Shown here piece after piece: positions 1 through 29,126 of a DNA stretch of 42,839 bases (positions are counted from its first letter, which is position 1; each line of letters opens with the position of its first letter). Source of the DNA: a virus. Lineage: Duplodnaviria > Heunggongvirae > Uroviricota > Caudoviricetes. The translations under genes and the position numbers were made by a program. The stretch covers positions 1-42,839 of IMG/VR virus record IMGVR_UViG_2565956731_000005; one strand, written 5' to 3'. The notes beneath the pieces were generated by a model. It did no database searches and had not been told where the DNA came from. It worked only from the letters and a program-made list of their open reading frames with translations.

Positions 1-516
1 ATGAAATTTAAAAAATGTCTTCTGCCTGTGGCAATGTTAGCGTCATTCACTCTGGCAGGATGCCAGTCAAATGCTGATGATCATGCCGCCGATGTTTATC
101 AAACCGATCAACTGAATACCAAACAAGAAACTAAAACCGTTAATATTATTTCCATTCTTCCCGCAAAAGTTGCCGTAGACAACGCCCAAAATAAACGGAA
201 CGCACAAGCCTTCGGCGCGCTTATTGGCGCTGTCGCTGGCGGTGTTATCGGCCACAACGTCGGGTCTGGCAGCAATTCCGGAACGACGGCAGGTGCAGTT
301 GGCGGCGGAGCTGTAGGCGCGGCAGCGGGTTCTATGGTGAATGATAAAACCTTAGTGGAAGGTGTTTCTTTAACATATAAGGAAGGCACCAAAGTGTATA
401 CCTCCACCCAGGTGGGTAAAGAGTGCCAGTTTACGACAGGTTTAGCCGTTGTTATTACCACGACGTATAACGAAACGCGTATTCAGCCAAATACCAAATG
501 TCCTGAAAAGAGCTAA
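1..516 (+). CDS. Glycine-zipper outer-membrane lipoprotein (YcfJ-like)
   Basis: Lipoprotein signal peptide with lipobox LAGC at the N-terminus; Gly-rich GxxxG zipper segment including LIGAVAGGVIGH, as in YcfJ/17-kDa surface-antigen family proteins. Strong RBS-coupled gene follows. May be host or phage cargo. Confidence 0.7.
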   Translation: MKFKKCLLPVAMLASFTLAGCQSNADDHAADVYQTDQLNTKQETKTVNIISILPAKVAVDNAQNKRNAQAFGALIGAVAGGVIGHNVGSGSNSGTTAGAVGGGAVGAAAGSMVNDKTLVEGVSLTYKEGTKVYTSTQVGKECQFTTGLAVVITTTYNETRIQPNTKCPEKS

Positions 517-3098: not shown

Positions 3099-3285
3099 TT
3101 ATTACGCATAACAATCTCCTTACTATTGAAGATGCATACATAATAAACCATTTATGAATAATAGTTACCTCAAAGCACTGTATTTCTACCTTCTACGGCA
3201 ATGAAAATTACGTTTAGAAAATGGTCTAGTGTTCCTCTCAGTGACTATTGAATTAGCTTCACGTACTGTGCAATAAGCAAGCCGA

Positions 3286-5961
3286 CTACTTAGATCCCCC
3301 CTCCGGATTCAGCAAATTATTCAGCTCCGCAAGATGTGACTCTATTTTTTCGATTCTTCTACGCAAATAAGCAGACTCAAGCCATAAGCACTGGTCAGCA
3401 CGAATCCCCCACCTATTTCCAGCTTTGCGTACCAGAATTCGCTCTTCTGTTTCGTATTCTTCTTCCTTCTCAATTTCGACACCATCCACAACTTCAGTAA
3501 TCGTCCTTACCGCCATCACTGGCTCGTATTTATCATCCCATTCATCGTAACAGAGAAGGCCAAATCGGGTTCCATCAACCCCATGCGCGAGGAAAGCGTC
3601 TCTTACCTGTTGTGCTATGACACCAAAATGCCAGCGGGCACCATCTCCCTTTTCCCTGATAGCCTCAAGCCAGCGAAAAGCTACGATCCTGATATCTCCC
3701 CATGCATCCAAAATTACATCACCTTCATAACCAGGGGACATATTCAGACTGAGTTCACTCGTTGTTAGCGGGTCGCTTTTTTCCCTACCATCTGAGGTGT
3801 TTATTGAGCCTGAAACAGCATAAATCTGAGTTGGCCTGTTATCTGGTACACCAACACTGTAAGAATTATCCAGATAAGGATGCCAGTGACCATTTGGACT
3901 TACTTTCCATCTCCAGGTGTCATTACTTCCCAAATGTAAATCAGCTCCATTTGCAGCCATTAAAGCTACATTGGAAGTGCTCATGTACATCTGGAAATAA
4001 CCAACGCCTTTTCTCTGCCATTCATAAAGCAAGCCTGTTCCCTGTTCGTTGTTGAACTTTAATGCTTTTATAGGTGAATTTTCTCCCCATGTTGTATCAC
4101 CTGAATAAATTACATGAGGAACCACCTCTGGATTATCAGAGATACATATTTCTTTAGATGGTAGAGATAGCGTTCTTTTATCTCCTGCACCAAGCGCATA
4201 AATCAGAATGGTGCGTCTGGTTGCCCCCATAACATCAGAATGCTCAGATACTATCGTTACCGATGGATAAAGAACACCATCGTAATCAACAAAATGCATC
4301 CCTTCTGATTCGCGGAATGTAGGGGTAGAGCCAATGATTCGTGGTAAATCCGTATCACCCAAATTAGAAATGGCTTTCTGCACATCATTTCCCAGCAGAT
4401 CGCAACTTGATAAATATTGAGTCTGCCCAAACGTAGTATTCCCACAATACATATACAGATGCGAGCCATCAGAACAAAATCCACTAAGTGATGTGGTTTC
4501 ATCACCACCGACTTGCGAAAGTTGAAGAGTAAACTCATGAGTACACAGGGCTGAATAATCACCTGGTTTATCAAAAATGTCTGTGGAAAATACACGAAAC
4601 GTTTGCTTATTGTAGTCGCCATTGTCGGTGAAACGGATAATCATCCATTTTCCGTCTAATGTAATAGTCGGAGTAGTTGAACTACCCGCTGTACGATTTT
4701 CCTCTACAACCCTAAACATTTCAGGAGAATCTATTTCCCCCTCGGAGTTGCTCCTCCAGGAAAATCTAACCACCCCATGTGAACCACCTACAGAAAAATC
4801 AAAGTCAGTATGGGTAGTAGAGCCTGCCGGTGTATCTGGAGCTGTAGTCCATAACTTAATCGCATTGTCTATATTCTGTACCGCTATTCCCTGATGACCC
4901 AGCCTGTCCTCAGGAAGCATAAAATCAGAAGATGTGTTTTTAATTTTTGAATCAGCAGAATATTTATTCCAGACAGAAACAGTAGTAGGGTTTCCATCTA
5001 TTTCTGTATTGTGATTGGAATAATAAGCTCTGCTTACAGGATCATATGCAAAAGTTTGCAATGTTCTTATTTGTCCGCGACCATTAGCAATTGGTATAAA
5101 CCGTATAGCGGCATTAGACTCATGTCCAATGGAATTAACGTCCCATGCAGGTCGCTTGCTTGTAACTAATTCGCCATTAACAGGAATGACTTTTCCGCCA
5201 ACCAACCATTTCCCGTTAATATAGGTATTCCTGAAAAATGTTCTGGAGGTAAAATAAGTTTTACCCTGCATATCAATAATTCTAGATGAAATAGCAGCCT
5301 CAAGTGATTCAAAAGCTAAAGAATCATTTGTAACACCATCACCTACAGCACCAAAATCTTTAGGGCTAACTGTGTCACGCATCTTATCCTGGAACGTTCT
5401 GTATACTGCTCCAGAACCATACTGAATAAACCAACCAAAACCACCAACAACTCCGGCGATTGCAGCATCAACATAATTACGCATTGAGCGATTATTTACA
5501 GCATCCTGCTCAAGTGATGGATCTGCAAGGTTAGAAATTCTGTTTTGTTTTGCATCGTAATATTTTGCAAGCAGAGAGGGCTTCATCAATGCACGTCTGA
5601 ACCACCCAAAACATTGCTGGATCAGCATCGTCAGGTAGTCAAAGGCATCTTCATGCACTTCGGGGAAAAACTTTCCCTGATTGCGGAGGTCTGTCTCCTG
5701 CACTACATCAAGCACACGATCTATCGTAATTAGCCAGCCAACAGCAAGCGGAGACGGAAGAACCACAGAACCGCCACTATAAGTGCCCGCCCCAGTTACC
5801 GTATAACCGGTATCCAGGACCAATTCTGTTACGTTTCCGTTCAGGTCAGACACCTGAACAACCAGGTCGGATTTTTTGAAAATACGGAAGGTATACGGAA
5901 ATGATGTCGTAACTCCGTTACCGGTGTATTCGTTGTGGTCAACTTCGGTTGAGACCGTCAT
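3286..5961 (-). CDS. Tailspike / tail fibre with depolymerase-type beta-helix and C-terminal intramolecular chaperone (peptidase S74-like)
   Basis: Conserved podovirus tail-fibre N-terminus (MTVSTEVDHNEYTGNGVTTSFPYTF); DFGAVGDGVTNDS pectate-lyase/beta-helix signature; C-terminal region with WHFGVIAQQV resembling the auto-cleaving chaperone domain. RBS GGAGA upstream. Confidence 0.85.
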   Translation of the reverse strand: MTVSTEVDHNEYTGNGVTTSFPYTFRIFKKSDLVVQVSDLNGNVTELVLDTGYTVTGAGTYSGGSVVLPSPLAVGWLITIDRVLDVVQETDLRNQGKFFPEVHEDAFDYLTMLIQQCFGWFRRALMKPSLLAKYYDAKQNRISNLADPSLEQDAVNNRSMRNYVDAAIAGVVGGFGWFIQYGSGAVYRTFQDKMRDTVSPKDFGAVGDGVTNDSLAFESLEAAISSRIIDMQGKTYFTSRTFFRNTYINGKWLVGGKVIPVNGELVTSKRPAWDVNSIGHESNAAIRFIPIANGRGQIRTLQTFAYDPVSRAYYSNHNTEIDGNPTTVSVWNKYSADSKIKNTSSDFMLPEDRLGHQGIAVQNIDNAIKLWTTAPDTPAGSTTHTDFDFSVGGSHGVVRFSWRSNSEGEIDSPEMFRVVEENRTAGSSTTPTITLDGKWMIIRFTDNGDYNKQTFRVFSTDIFDKPGDYSALCTHEFTLQLSQVGGDETTSLSGFCSDGSHLYMYCGNTTFGQTQYLSSCDLLGNDVQKAISNLGDTDLPRIIGSTPTFRESEGMHFVDYDGVLYPSVTIVSEHSDVMGATRRTILIYALGAGDKRTLSLPSKEICISDNPEVVPHVIYSGDTTWGENSPIKALKFNNEQGTGLLYEWQRKGVGYFQMYMSTSNVALMAANGADLHLGSNDTWRWKVSPNGHWHPYLDNSYSVGVPDNRPTQIYAVSGSINTSDGREKSDPLTTSELSLNMSPGYEGDVILDAWGDIRIVAFRWLEAIREKGDGARWHFGVIAQQVRDAFLAHGVDGTRFGLLCYDEWDDKYEPVMAVRTITEVVDGVEIEKEEEYETEERILVRKAGNRWGIRADQCLWLESAYLRRRIEKIESHLAELNNLLNPEGGSK

Positions 5962-6421: not shown

Positions 6422-6439
6422 AGGCCGCAAGAGCGGCCT
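6422..6439. terminator. Hairpin between convergent genes (bidirectional terminator candidate)
   Basis: AGGCCGC-AAGA-GCGGCCT stem-loop in the 22-bp gap between convergent genes 6158..6415 and 6438..7166; T-rich on the minus side. Confidence 0.5.
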
Positions 6440-7166
6440 ATCGTTTCGCTTTGTGCTCATCCCAGCACGTTTTGCACCATGCCATTAATCCGTCCGCATT
6501 TTGATTATTAGGGTAAAAGCTGGTTCGTTTTCTGCGGACATTACAAATTGGGCACCACTTCATATGGCGTGTATTCTTTGGGCCATCGAGACACCTTGCA
6601 CACCACTTAGTCAATCCATCTGGATTTTTTGACGATTTCCTGAATTTTTCATATGGTAGGTTTATTCTGCATCGCAAGCACTGCTTGCTACCACTTGAAA
6701 CTCTGTTAGCTGATTCTTCTTTTGGCGGCGATACAGAAGGTATTCTTGCTGGCTCTGATACTGCCTGAGGTGCTTTTTTAGATGACTGAGACGATATGTC
6801 ATCACCAGGGAATCTTCCATGATATGCCGGACGCGTTGACACTCCAGGTGGAAGCTCAGCTGTAAACGGCTTTGGCTGAATCAGTTGCCTCTCTTTTGCT
6901 AACTCCTGCTGTTTATAATATGTCTGGATTACCGCACTATCATAAGCAGGAGGTGCGGAAATATTAGGCGCATTACCTCCAGTTTTTTGAAACTGAGTAG
7001 AGGTGTGTTCTATCACCTGTGTACGATTAATCGTTATCTCCCCATCTTCGGTCTTTATCGTTTTGTTATGATTAACGACCGTACGATCAGAGATCTTAGT
7101 CTTGTTCTGGTTGATAACGTAAATAATCACCGCAACCACACCAACAACTATCCAGAAAACTTCCAT
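6438..7166 (-). CDS. Membrane-anchored protein with tandem C-terminal zinc-ribbon repeats, function unknown
   Basis: N-terminal transmembrane helix (FWIVVGVVAVIIYVI), Pro/Ser-rich linker, then CLRC…DGLTKWCARC…WCPIC…DGLMAWCKTC (two xDGLxxWCxxC repeats plus extra CxxC). RBS GAGGAAAA upstream; operator 20 bp upstream. Confidence 0.6.
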   Translation of the reverse strand: MEVFWIVVGVVAVIIYVINQNKTKISDRTVVNHNKTIKTEDGEITINRTQVIEHTSTQFQKTGGNAPNISAPPAYDSAVIQTYYKQQELAKERQLIQPKPFTAELPPGVSTRPAYHGRFPGDDISSQSSKKAPQAVSEPARIPSVSPPKEESANRVSSGSKQCLRCRINLPYEKFRKSSKNPDGLTKWCARCLDGPKNTRHMKWCPICNVRRKRTSFYPNNQNADGLMAWCKTCWDEHKAKR

Positions 7167-8419: not shown

Positions 8420-8599
8420 ATGCGAAACGAAAAATTGCAGATGCGTAGAGCGCAAGCTGCCGCAAGACGTTCTTTCAATGGAAGCGTAGAGTACGTAAAA
8501 GTTACTATGACAAAAGATCACGCAAGTCGCGTATCCCGCGCTTTCTTTGATTCTCGTAACAATAAGGAAAATTATGAGTTCGTCTGCGTCGCAGAATGA
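8420..8599 (+). CDS. Small basic protein (59 aa), possible ribbon-helix-helix antitoxin/regulator
   Basis: Below the ORF-track size cutoff. RBS GAGG 8 nt upstream; overlaps the start of the downstream gene by 26 bp (operon-coupled). VKVTMTKDHASRVSRAFF is consistent with a beta-strand plus helix DNA-binding fold. Confidence 0.35.
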   Translation: MRNEKLQMRRAQAAARRSFNGSVEYVKVTMTKDHASRVSRAFFDSRNNKENYEFVCVAE

Positions 8600-9119
8600 T
8601 AAAAATCAAATTGTCAGATATAAGGGTCGAGTATTGCATACGCAAAATTTCTCGGCCCTTTGTGCATCTGATCTTGAGCTGAAGAAAGTATCTGATGCCT
8701 TTACCCAGTATTGGAAAACGGGATACCATCCATCTCTTGGTAAAGATGCTGCATTTGCTCGTCCGACAGAAATGCTTAAACTAAATGTCAGGCATACTCA
8801 TGTCGATAACCAAGACTATATTCCAGAAGATAGTGATAAAAAACACACTGGTAAAAAATCATCTTGGGATGCATGGAAAAATATAGCGTCTGTACAAGTA
8901 AAATGCATACCAACAAGTGATTGCTTTTTAGTTTATTCGGTAAATCACAATCGTGATGCGCTGGTTATGTTTTTTGTTGACGCAGATGCCCACAACATAA
9001 CTGAGCAAGAAGAGTTTAAAGAGGCAGCAATCACTATCAGTTATCAATTCTTTGAGAAAACAAAAACAGAACCAATGCCTTTAGAAGAAGATCTTTTTTC
9101 TGATAAATGGAAGGAATAA
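8574..9119 (+). CDS. YafO-like protein (putative toxin / mRNA interferase family), product uncertain
   Basis: RBS AAGGAAA upstream of the ATG at 8574. Central region (GKDAAF…NVRHTHV…TSDCFLVYS…ALVMFFVDADAH) resembles YafO-family toxins as recalled; AT-rich relative to neighbours. Confidence 0.45.
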   Translation: MSSSASQNDKNQIVRYKGRVLHTQNFSALCASDLELKKVSDAFTQYWKTGYHPSLGKDAAFARPTEMLKLNVRHTHVDNQDYIPEDSDKKHTGKKSSWDAWKNIASVQVKCIPTSDCFLVYSVNHNRDALVMFFVDADAHNITEQEEFKEAAITISYQFFEKTKTEPMPLEEDLFSDKWKE

Positions 9120-25780: not shown

Positions 25781-25857
25781 GTGGCATTAGCTCAGTTGGA
25801 CAGAGCAACCGCCTTCTAAGCGGTTGGTCGCAGGTTCGAATCCTGCATGCCACGCCA
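25781..25857 (+). tRNA. tRNA-Arg (anticodon UCU), CCA end encoded
   Basis: Cloverleaf folded by hand: acceptor GTGGCAT/ATGCCAC, D-arm GCTC-AGTTGGACA-GAGC, anticodon stem ACCGC/GCGGT with loop CTTCTAA, T-arm GCAGG-TTCGAAT-CCTGC, discriminator G then CCA. Resembles argU. Confidence 0.9.
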
Positions 25858-26057: not shown

Positions 26058-26390
26058 ATGAAAGAGAAGACTGCAGCTGAGCGCTATGCCGCAGCTATCA
26101 ATGCCGCGATGGCGATTGTAAACCTGCGTGAAGAGATTAAAGATCTCCTTGCAATTATCCATAACAACCTGACATGTACAGAGTTGCTTGGCGGTCAGTA
26201 CAACGGTGAGGCGGTGAAGGAGGCATTTAAAAATGCCGAGGTAGGAATAATTCCAGCAAACTATGTCAAGGCTGAATGTGTGCTCCTAAAGGCACGAGTG
26301 AGTCTGCATGAAGATCCTGGTAATCTCGGTCGAACTGCAATGCGTTACGTGATAGACGAGTCGAATGCCAAACACAATCTACCGAAATAA
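26058..26390 (+). CDS. Hypothetical protein (moron, antisense to the late operon)
   Basis: RBS AAGG 8 nt upstream of the ATG at 26058 (the track GTG start is 26049); followed by the palindrome and a terminator. Confidence 0.5.
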   Translation: MKEKTAAERYAAAINAAMAIVNLREEIKDLLAIIHNNLTCTELLGGQYNGEAVKEAFKNAEVGIIPANYVKAECVLLKARVSLHEDPGNLGRTAMRYVIDESNAKHNLPK

Positions 26391-26394
26391 CACC

Positions 26395-26480: not shown

Positions 26481-29126
<2,646 letters not shown>

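What the first reader, a model, noticed from the sequence alone, without database searches (positions are those of the whole stretch)
3286..5961. Mosaic tailspike: conserved particle-binding N-terminus, AT-rich enzymatic centre, self-cleaving chaperone C-terminus
The N-terminal roughly 150 residues are the conserved podovirus fibre anchor. The central part, which carries the beta-helix/pectate-lyase signature, is visibly more AT-rich than the flanking structural genes. The C-terminus carries an S74-like intramolecular chaperone. This is the usual signature of a horizontally swapped receptor-binding and depolymerase module, and it defines the host surface polysaccharide specificity.
Basis: partly seen in the sequence, partly recalled or inferred. 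Interest (0 to 1): 0.4.

Follow-up and report, generated by a model that had tools for sequence, protein, structure and literature searches.

The report
Mosaic tailspike with a propeller head
This is an intact tailspike gene of an epsilon15-like E. coli prophage whose host-recognition part was swapped in from other phages.

Summary
The ORF (3286-5961, minus strand, 891 aa) is real. It sits in an epsilon15/phiV10-like (Uetakevirus) E. coli prophage.

- Residues 1-165 are the epsilon15-type particle anchor.
- The centre is the most AT-rich 1.5 kb of the window (40.3% GC, GC3 29.5%, against 48.9% overall).
- The C-terminus is a Peptidase_S74 self-cleaving chaperone, with the predicted dyad Ser723/Lys728.

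Horizontal exchange is confirmed. Residues about 206-885 are 95% identical in DNA to a P22-like prophage spike and 82% to gp76 of the N4-like phage Pollock. The crossover lies in the DFGAVGDGVTND motif.

Depolymerase activity is therefore unproven. The overall layout (cap, propeller, stalk, chaperone) resembles the K1F endosialidase.

The propeller DNA occurs in 1 of 5,426 complete E. coli genomes. That strain has an O169-type O-antigen cluster, which gives a circumstantial candidate receptor.

Verdict: new member of a known kind, modest interest.

The parts
3286..5961 (-). Tailspike ORF, 891 aa plus stop codon (3286-3288)
   Evidence: ORF list and translation. PHROG tail-spike and tail-fibre families match at E down to 5e-257. 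The exact protein is on 2 public contigs.
5467..5961 (-). Residues 1-165: epsilon15-type particle-binding anchor (beta-sandwich followed by coiled-coil helices)
   Evidence: 72% aa identity to the epsilon15 tailspike over residues 1-165, and 69% to the phiV10 tail fibre. Dpo31/Carin-1 fibre 28lx/8ck1 match at E 7.7e-42. Foldseek hit to 8ck1_B at 46% identity. D1 of Dpo31 sits at the base of the virion tail (PMC13317679). The structure model is low-confidence here.
5362..5466 (-). Residues 166-200: neck or linker, shared with a subset of E. coli epsilon15-like spikes (phiv142-3, HEMP4, GF43) but not with epsilon15 or phiV10; already AT-rich
   Evidence: phiv142-3 is 91.5% aa identical over residues 1-224. 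epsilon15 and phiV10 similarity stops at residue 165. Residues 166-240 have GC3 of 0.23.
5314..5355 (-). Residues 203-216: crossover zone in the DFGAVGDGVTND motif, where backbone homology ends and module homology begins
   Evidence: The GF43 backbone aligns up to gene nt 610 and phiv142-3 up to nt 647. AST215 aligns from nt 618 and Pollock from nt 616. The weak PF12708 and PF12218 hits both fall on this motif. Many unrelated representatives match only residues 200-260.
5122..5361 (-). Residues 201-280: small cap domain carrying the DFGAxGDG motif (weakly End_N_terminal-like)
   Evidence: PF12218 scores 18.7 bits against a cutoff of 26.3 in the query, but 11 of 15 homologues hit it, best E 1.4e-6. 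Block-mean pLDDT is 79-91 over residues 201-290.
4192..5112 (-). Residues 284-590: five-bladed beta-propeller (20 strands, 5 x 4), the presumed receptor-binding head
3796..4191 (-). Residues 591-722: stalk region, predicted all-beta and probably trimer-intertwined; fold unresolved
   Evidence: Mostly low pLDDT in the monomer model: block means 65 for 591-600, then 26-49 from residue 601. Residues 691-722 give a weak PF12219 End_tail_spike match. The alignment to the stalk end of 3gw6 starts at residue 692.
3289..3795 (-). Residues 723-891: Peptidase_S74 intramolecular chaperone, predicted to be released by cleavage before Ser723
   Evidence: PF13884 scores 41.4 bits against a cutoff of 22. 3gw6 matches at E 6.4e-33. 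Foldseek hits 3gw6.
3778..3795 (-). Residues 723-728 (SDGREK): predicted Ser723/Lys728 catalytic dyad
   Evidence: Ser723 aligns with the residue five positions before the conserved Lys in the K1F chaperone 3gw6. The Lys aligns with Lys728. The S(or C)-D-x-R-x-K motif is conserved in the homologues that carry the domain.
3750..5550 (.). AT-rich stretch (300-nt windows with 38-44% GC)
   Evidence: Composition profile. Codon-position analysis.

Best explanation
The gene encodes the tailspike of an epsilon15/phiV10-like temperate podovirus of E. coli. It is assembled from parts with different histories.

1. Residues 1-165 are the lineage's own anchor, which fixes the trimer to the tail hub.
2. 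After a short neck, a recombination joint lies in the conserved DFGAVGDGVTND motif (residues 203-216).
3. From there to the end of the gene is a cassette also found on P22-like and N4-like phages: a small cap, a five-bladed beta-propeller (284-590), a beta-stalk (591-722) and a Peptidase_S74 chaperone (723-891).

Inferred mechanism:
- The chaperone drives trimerisation of the stalk. It then removes itself by Ser723/Lys728 autoproteolysis, leaving a mature spike of 722 residues.
- Each of the three propellers offers a central pocket ringed by Q302, H356-Q357, S493 and E551/E553. This is the pocket proposed to hold GlcNAc in phi11 Gp45. It recognises a sugar of the host surface polysaccharide, most likely an O-antigen, with O169 as a circumstantial candidate.
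- Whether the pocket only binds or also cleaves or deacetylates is open. I put binding-only at about 55% and catalysis at about 45%.
- The AT-richness reflects acquisition from a low-GC phage pool. Pollock's genome is 36% GC and the module looks native there.

Shown: domain boundaries, fold, homologies, junctions, composition. Inferred: cleavage, pocket function, receptor identity, direction of transfer.
For: Context:
- The window is 96-98% identical in DNA to phiV10, phiv142-3 and HEMP4 over about 77-79% of its first 25 kb. Holin and endolysin genes lie downstream of the spike and structural genes upstream.

Anchor and chaperone:
- Anchor.
- Chaperone and dyad.

Propeller:
- Two models, the second with pLDDT 88.4 and pTM 0.88.
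- Foldseek E about 1e-12.
- Profile against PDB hits 5efv_A at E 3.9e-12.
- PF21311 is hit by 10 of 15 homologues, best E 1.1e-10.

Pocket:
- Family-wide conservation in 124 sequences of Q302 (98%), G355/H356/Q357 (94-98%), D498 (96%), E551 (98%) and E553 (97%).
- The phi11 cavity residues Gln165, Thr211 and Gln330 (PMC4901313) align with Q302, G358 and S493 in the alignment, after the 12-residue tag offset.

Mosaic:
- DNA junctions.
- The same cassette on P22-like, N4-like, PF18668-bearing and anchor-less proteins.

Composition:
-.
- In Pollock the module has 38% GC and GC3 23%, inside a 36.7% GC region of a 36% GC genome.

Receptor lead:
- Only E. coli AST215, of 5,426 complete genomes, carries the propeller DNA.
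- Its O-antigen cluster is annotated O169 wzx and O169/O183 wzy.
- Pollock was isolated on an enterotoxigenic E. coli.
Against: - The query alone scores just below Pfam's threshold for PF21311 (20.2 against 23.7 bits).
- The anchor, the stalk and most of the chaperone are mostly low-confidence in the monomer model, so the trimer architecture is inferred by analogy.
- No biochemical data exist for any member of the propeller cassette.
- The pocket residues are conserved equally in Staphylococcus phage proteins that bind a different glycan, so they do not reveal specificity or catalysis.
- The O169 link rests on one genome, and its O-antigen cluster carries IS insertions.
- The serotype of the window's own host is unknown.
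- The prophage has an IS element inside its terminase gene, so the spike may no longer be used.
Confidence: 0.72

Rival explanations
1. The centre is a right-handed parallel beta-helix of the pectate-lyase type that acts as an O-antigen or capsule depolymerase, as in the P22, Sf6, HK620 or epsilon15 spikes.
For: - The DFGAVGDGVTND motif at residues 201-219 resembles the start of PF12708 (E 0.044).
- Most other spikes that share this anchor do carry PF12708.
- 3 of 15 aligned relatives hit PF12708.
Against: - The PF12708 match covers 19 residues and scores 14 bits against a cutoff of 27.
- Both models give 20 antiparallel strands in five blades.
- The motif lies upstream of the propeller and is also matched by the endosialidase N-terminal extension model.
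Confidence: 0.03
2. The propeller is itself an enzyme: a glycosidase, lyase or deacetylase acting on the O-antigen. On this reading the spike is a true depolymerase of a fold class not yet characterised in coliphages.
For: - Characterised O-antigen-specific podovirus spikes are enzymes (general knowledge: P22, Sf6, HK620, epsilon15, G7C).
- H356, E551 and E553 are near-invariant at the pocket.
- n-bladed propellers make up 18% of depolymerase-like domains in Klebsiella prophages (PMC12491483).
Against: - The solved homologues (phi11 Gp45, 80alpha receptor-binding protein, P68 fibre) are described as binders with no reported activity.
- The same conserved residues occur in them.
- There is no sequence match to any glycoside hydrolase or lyase family.
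- The Klebsiella study itself calls the role of this fold in phages unclear.
Confidence: 0.4
3. It is an endosialidase-type spike (K1F/GH58 family) that degrades a polysialic-acid or similar capsule, as the Pollock annotation 'endosialidase, N-terminal extension domain' hints.
For: - Weak matches to PF12218 (205-239) and PF12219 (691-722), and a strong match to the K1F chaperone.
- The domain order cap, propeller, stalk, chaperone is the same as in K1F.
- The Pollock gp76 annotation note.
Against: - No match to the endosialidase catalytic propeller by sequence.
- Five blades rather than six.
- No Asp-box or RIP motif.
Confidence: 0.03
4. The gene is a relic. Because the prophage is packaging-defective, the spike is no longer under selection for infection and has no current function.
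For: A 1,954-bp IS21-family element splits the terminase large-subunit gene.
Against: - The 891-codon ORF is intact.
- The identical protein is on two independent contigs. A 99.6% identical cluster has 50 member sequences.
- An IS insertion can be recent.
Confidence: 0.15

Closest known systems
Escherichia phage Pollock gp76 (AIX12435, N4-like Pollockvirus) and the P22-like prophage tailspike of E. coli AST215 (WP_276383651)
   Same: They carry the same cap, propeller, stalk and chaperone cassette. Pollock is 83% aa identical over residues 193-865. AST215 is 95% identical in DNA over residues 207-885, and its protein cluster P0002 is 93% aa identical.
   Different: The N-termini are unrelated: a 388-residue N4-like attachment part in Pollock and a P22 head-binding domain (PF09008) in AST215. 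Neither protein has been characterised.
Staphylococcus phage phi11 Gp45, 80alpha gp61 and P68 tail fibre (PF21311 'Phage_RBD_prop')
   Different: Those proteins have a coiled-coil stem and C-terminal tower domains, no S74 chaperone, bind wall teichoic acid GlcNAc, and belong to Gram-positive phages. Sequence identity is only 14-17%.
Coliphage K1F endosialidase (endoNF; chaperone 3gw6)
   Same: Same order of parts: particle-binding N-terminus, cap, propeller head, beta-stalk, self-cleaving chaperone. The chaperone is clearly homologous (E 6.4e-33) and the Ser/Lys dyad aligns.
   Different: The K1F head is a six-bladed sialidase propeller with a nested lectin barrel. Here it is a five-bladed phi11-type propeller with no sialidase motifs.
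Salmonella phage epsilon15 gp20 tailspike and E. coli phage phiV10 tail fibre
   Same: Same anchor (69-72% aa over residues 1-165), same genome position and the same virus lineage.
   Different: Their receptor-binding parts are unrelated beyond residue 165. phiV10 also has an O-acetyltransferase gene downstream of its fibre, which is absent here.
Cobetia phage Carin-1 Dpo31 (PDB 28lx, 8ck1)
   Same: The N-terminal beta-sandwich plus coiled coil is homologous (E 7.7e-42 over residues 1-212). Dpo31 also sheds an 18-kDa C-terminal domain.
   Different: Different central domain; marine host.

Membership tests
Peptidase_S74 / endosialidase-type intramolecular chaperone (PF13884) | Sequence match above the curated threshold | tested here: met
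   41.4 bits against a cutoff of 22 over residues 738-794. 3gw6 matches at E 6.4e-33 over residues 692-880.
Peptidase_S74 / endosialidase-type intramolecular chaperone (PF13884) | Ser-Lys dyad with five-residue spacing at the cleavage site | tested here: met
   Ser723 and Lys728 (SDGREK) align with the corresponding K1F positions in 3gw6. They are conserved in homologues, with Cys in place of Ser in three of them.
Peptidase_S74 / endosialidase-type intramolecular chaperone (PF13884) | Autoproteolytic release after trimer folding | not testable with these tools
   Needs expression and SDS-PAGE or mass spectrometry of wild type against S723A.
Pectate-lyase-like right-handed beta-helix tailspikes (PF12708/PF13229) | Sequence match above threshold across the helix | tested here: not met
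   The match covers residues 201-219 only, at 14 bits against a cutoff of 27 and E 0.044.
Pectate-lyase-like right-handed beta-helix tailspikes (PF12708/PF13229) | Parallel beta-helix fold in the central domain | tested here: not met
Phage five-bladed propeller receptor-binding platform (PF21311, phi11 Gp45 type) | Sequence homology to the family | tested here: met
   The query alone scores 20.2 bits against a cutoff of 23.7. However, 10 of 15 homologues hit the family, best E 1.1e-10. A profile of 17 family members hits 5efv_A at E 3.9e-12 over the full propeller.
Phage five-bladed propeller receptor-binding platform (PF21311, phi11 Gp45 type) | Five blades of four antiparallel strands | tested here: met
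Phage five-bladed propeller receptor-binding platform (PF21311, phi11 Gp45 type) | Polar central cavity proposed to bind a sugar | tested here: inconclusive
   The aligned positions Q302, G358 and S493 correspond to phi11 Gln165, Thr211 and Gln330. I could not inspect model coordinates, and ligand binding cannot be tested.
Endosialidase (GH58, K1F type) | Six-bladed sialidase propeller with Asp-box motifs | tested here: not met
   No hit to the catalytic propeller model. The model has five blades. There is no Asp-box or RIP motif.
Endosialidase (GH58, K1F type) | N-terminal extension (PF12218) and stalk (PF12219) | tested here: inconclusive
   18.7 bits against a cutoff of 26.3, and 17.9 against 25; both are below threshold. 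PF12218 is hit by 11 of 15 homologues, best E 1.4e-6.
Epsilon15-type (Uetakevirus) tailspike | Homologous N-terminal anchor | tested here: met
   72% aa identity to epsilon15 gp20 over residues 1-165.
Epsilon15-type (Uetakevirus) tailspike | Position in an epsilon15-like genome, between structural genes and the lysis cassette | tested here: met
   96-98% DNA identity to phiV10, phiv142-3 and HEMP4. Holins and endolysin lie downstream.

The most novel reading that the evidence does not exclude
The phi11-type five-bladed propeller, mounted on an endosialidase-like frame (cap, propeller, stalk, self-cleaving chaperone), is an uncharacterised class of O-antigen-directed tailspike head in enterobacterial podoviruses. 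It would either use new catalytic chemistry in its conserved H356/E551/E553 pocket, or let a podovirus cross the O-antigen layer without any depolymerase. Here it would be specific for O169-type enterotoxigenic E. coli.
Probability: 0.2. Interest if true: 0.55.

Novelty: new member of a known kind. Interest (0 to 1): 0.3.

Why it matters
- Tailspike heads set phage host range, so they are the parts used in phage typing, engineered host-range switching and anti-biofilm enzymes.
- This case shows that a short conserved motif (DFGAxGDG) at the start of many spike heads is not diagnostic of a beta-helix. It marks the joint at which unrelated heads are exchanged among epsilon15-like, P22-like and N4-like phages.
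- The propeller head has no tested function in any Gram-negative phage. A published survey of Klebsiella prophages calls this fold's role unclear (PMC12491483).
- A rare cassette with a plausible O169 target gives a concrete protein to test for binding against cleavage.
- Otherwise the finding is a routine example of tailspike mosaicism.

Tried and rejected
- The word-index protein search with the centre alone found only 9 relatives and missed known ones. The exhaustive representative search was needed.
- NCBIfam gave no hit for the spike.
- The promoter and terminator scan around the gene showed fewer promoter-like sites than the shuffles and nothing informative.
- The 2026 preprint on the epsilon15 tailspike structure was listed by the search but could not be opened.
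- The papers that mention Pollock give no data on its spikes or host serotype beyond 'ETEC'.
- The E. coli phage-host prediction preprint mentions propellers only for K1 endosialidases.
- The full-length monomer model was unusable for the anchor, the stalk and most of the chaperone (pLDDT mostly below 50), so no statement about the trimer is based on it.
- I could not obtain model coordinates. Pocket residues were placed by sequence alignment to phi11 Gp45 rather than by inspecting the model.
- I considered typing the O-antigen of the window's own host. The look-up returned only a 39-kb contig from SRR958768, with no serotype information.
- The endosialidase and beta-helix readings were tested and rejected (see rival explanations).
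Full report
**The observation**

The coordinates hold one 891-codon ORF on the minus strand, 3286-5961. The first 25 kb of the window are 96-98% identical in DNA to the epsilon15-like (Uetakevirus) coliphages HEMP4, phiv142-3 and phiV10, over about 77-79% of their length. Two holins and an endolysin lie downstream of the ORF. The large virion proteins lie upstream. This is the same layout as in phiV10 and phiv142-3. PHROG tail-spike and tail-fibre families match at E down to 5e-257. The gene is therefore the tailspike of an epsilon15-like prophage of E. coli. The protein cluster is named by NCBI as an E. coli tail fibre domain protein.

**Composition**

- The whole window has 48.9% GC.
- Residues 1-165 of the gene have 46.1% GC (GC3 45.5%).
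- Residues 200-690 have 40.3% GC (GC3 29.5%).
- Residues 740-891 have 46.9% GC (GC3 41.4%).
- None of the 1470-nt windows sampled every 100 nt across the window is lower than the centre (mean 48.9%, sd 2.8%).
- Across 23 other ORFs, GC3 is 0.485 +/- 0.072. Only ORF 8547-9119 is as AT-rich.

The AT-richness is real and unusual. The drop in GC3 begins near residue 120-150, a little before the cassette junction.

**N-terminus**

- Residues 1-165 are 72% identical to the epsilon15 tailspike and 69% to the phiV10 fibre. Similarity then stops.
- A subset of E. coli phages (phiv142-3, EC.W1-9, HEMP4) stays at about 92% identity to residues 203-224.
- Residues 1-212 match the Carin-1 spike Dpo31 at E 7.7e-42. 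Its D1 beta-sandwich and D2 coiled coil sit at the base of the tail in the virion (PMC13317679).
- The Pfam T7 tail-fibre N-terminal model matches only faintly (E 0.039).

It is the epsilon15 type.

**C-terminus**

- Peptidase_S74 scores 41.4 bits against a cutoff of 22.
- Residues 692-880 align to the K1F endosialidase chaperone 3gw6 at E 6.4e-33.
- Ser723 and Lys728 (SDGREK) fall on the positions of the K1F cleavage-site residue and its partner lysine.
- The motif is conserved in the homologues that have the domain. Three of them have Cys in place of Ser.
- Cleavage before Ser723 would give a 722-residue mature spike and a 169-residue fragment. This is inferred, not shown.

**Centre**

- The only match to the pectate-lyase-like model is 19 residues (201-219), at 14 bits against a cutoff of 27. 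The same stretch is also matched by the endosialidase N-terminal-extension model.
- A full-length AlphaFold2 model from 15 homologues gave block-mean pLDDT mostly between 70 and 92 for residues 200-600, with a few lower blocks.
- A propeller-only model (residues 275-600, 17 diverse homologues) gave pLDDT 88.4 and pTM 0.88. It has 20 strands arranged as five four-stranded blades between residues 284 and 590.
- Foldseek gives E about 1e-12 and TM 0.59-0.64 (query-normalised) to phi11, 80alpha and P68 proteins.
- No beta-helix protein appears in any of these lists.
- At sequence level the query alone is just under Pfam's threshold for PF21311 (20.2 against 23.7 bits).
- However, 10 of 15 homologues hit PF21311, best E 1.1e-10.
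- A 17-sequence profile finds phi11 Gp45 at E 3.9e-12 across its whole propeller, residues 168-437 of the tagged chain.

The head is a member of the phi11-type five-bladed propeller family.

**Pocket**

- In 124 family sequences the most conserved positions are Q302, G355-H356-Q357-G358, W371, R399, R456, D468, D498-G499, G524, E551 and E553.
- Several of these (the hhhD turn and the RhF motif) recur blade by blade and look structural.
- Q302, H356/Q357, position 493 and E551/E553 lie at the start of strands within successive blades.
- In the alignment to 5efv_A, after the 12-residue tag offset, the residues that Koc et al. place around the putative GlcNAc cavity of Gp45 (Gln165, Thr211, Gln330; PMC4901313) fall on Q302, G358 and S493.

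The best-supported working part is therefore a central sugar pocket. No enzyme activity is reported for the solved relatives. A survey of Klebsiella prophages lists n-bladed propellers as 18% of depolymerase-like domains but calls their role in phages unclear (PMC12491483). I therefore treat 'depolymerase' as unproven and give catalysis about 45%.

**Stalk**

Residues 591-722 are predicted all-beta with mostly low confidence in the monomer model. Only the last 30 residues resemble the end of the K1F stalk. The fold is unresolved.

**Mosaicism**

At DNA level:
- Backbone homology runs to gene nt 610 (GF43 prophage, 95%) or nt 647 (phiv142-3, 94%).
- Homology to a P22-like prophage spike in E. 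coli AST215 starts at nt 618 and runs to residue 885 (95%).
- Homology to gp76 of N4-like phage Pollock starts at nt 616 and runs to residue 874 (82%).

The joint therefore lies in the codons for DFGAVGDGVTND. Many otherwise unrelated spikes share this motif. In the exhaustive protein search, dozens of representatives match only residues 200-260.

The chaperone travelled with the cassette. It is about 95% identical to AST215 but only 87% to the chaperone of other epsilon15-like spikes.

The same cassette sits behind several different N-termini:
- a P22 head-binding domain (P0002);
- a 388-residue N4-type N-terminus (Pollock gp76, P0003);
- a PF18668 domain (P0004);
- almost no N-terminus (P0005-7).

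Other spikes with this anchor carry beta-helices, GDSL esterases or Peptidase_G2 domains instead.

**Origin of the AT-richness**

Pollock's genome is 36% GC (PMC4319500). In Pollock the cassette has 38% GC and GC3 23%, like its neighbours. A low-GC virulent-phage pool is therefore a plausible source. The direction of transfer is an inference.

**Rarity and receptor**

- The propeller DNA is found in 1 of 5,426 complete E. coli genomes, strain AST215.
- By contrast, 536 genomes match some part of the 3.3-kb region.
- Only 6 of 1.84 billion representative proteins match the centre at E below 1e-30.
- AST215's O-antigen cluster is annotated with an O169 flippase and an O169/O183 polymerase, and it carries IS insertions.
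- Pollock was isolated on an enterotoxigenic E. coli. From my own knowledge, O169 is a common serogroup of such strains.

This makes O169 a candidate receptor, but on circumstantial evidence only. Unlike phiV10, this prophage has no O-antigen-modifying gene next to the spike.

**Comparison and verdict**

In function and layout the closest analogue is the K1F endosialidase: anchor, cap, propeller, stalk, self-cleaving chaperone. It is not a member of that family. It has five blades rather than six, no Asp-box, and no match to the catalytic model. By descent its head belongs with the phi11/80alpha/P68 receptor-binding propellers, its anchor with epsilon15, and its chaperone with S74.

It is a new member of a known kind (a modular tailspike), with a head type that has not been studied in Gram-negative phages. 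Interest is modest.

Noticed in passing
window 27173-29126: A 1,954-bp insertion relative to phiv142-3, with a 5-bp overlap of the flanking homology (a target-site duplication), splits the terminase large-subunit gene. It encodes an IstA-like transposase (27259-28281) and an IstB/DnaC-like protein (28278-29060), so it is an IS21-family element. The prophage is probably unable to package DNA.
   Followed up: yes
window 8547-9119 (+): This 190-aa ORF is as AT-rich as the spike centre (36.8% GC, GC3 29.3%). It gives a borderline YafO-toxin match (PF13957, 25.8 bits against a cutoff of 25). It is probably an acquired accessory gene lying between the anti-repressor and the structural genes.
   Followed up: partly
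window 3099-3285: There is no gene between the spike and the holin-like ORF. phiV10 has an O-acetyltransferase (oac, superinfection immunity) at this position, and phiv142-3 has a 300-nt ORF. The serotype-converting gene was not carried with this cassette.
   Followed up: partly
window 1-516 (+): PHROG labels this ORF 'DNA methyltransferase' (phrog_1277). Pfam instead gives glycine-zipper and TraT-like outer-membrane lipoprotein matches (PF05433, 33 bits). The PHROG label looks wrong, and the ORF may be an exclusion or serum-resistance-type accessory gene.
   Followed up: partly
proteins P0005, P0006, P0007 (homologues, alignment A1): In three relatives the chaperone's nucleophile Ser is replaced by Cys (TCDARLK), with the partner Lys kept. 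This is a possible Cys-Lys variant of the S74 self-cleavage site.
   Followed up: no
window 25781-25857 and 26064-26393: A tRNA-Arg(tct) lies between the portal and terminase genes, as in phiv142-3. Next to it, a 330-bp stretch has no counterpart in phiv142-3.
   Followed up: no
window 6438-7166 (-): This 242-aa ORF belongs to an unknown family (phrog_6762) and has C-terminal zinc-finger-like matches to endonuclease VII and Lar-like models. It sits in the variable region upstream of the spike.
   Followed up: no
L006 33068-36440 (E. coli AST215): The O169-type O-antigen cluster of the only complete genome carrying the propeller cassette is interrupted by ISAs1-family transposase genes and pseudogenes between wzx and cpsG. 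That strain may no longer make the full O-antigen.
   Followed up: no
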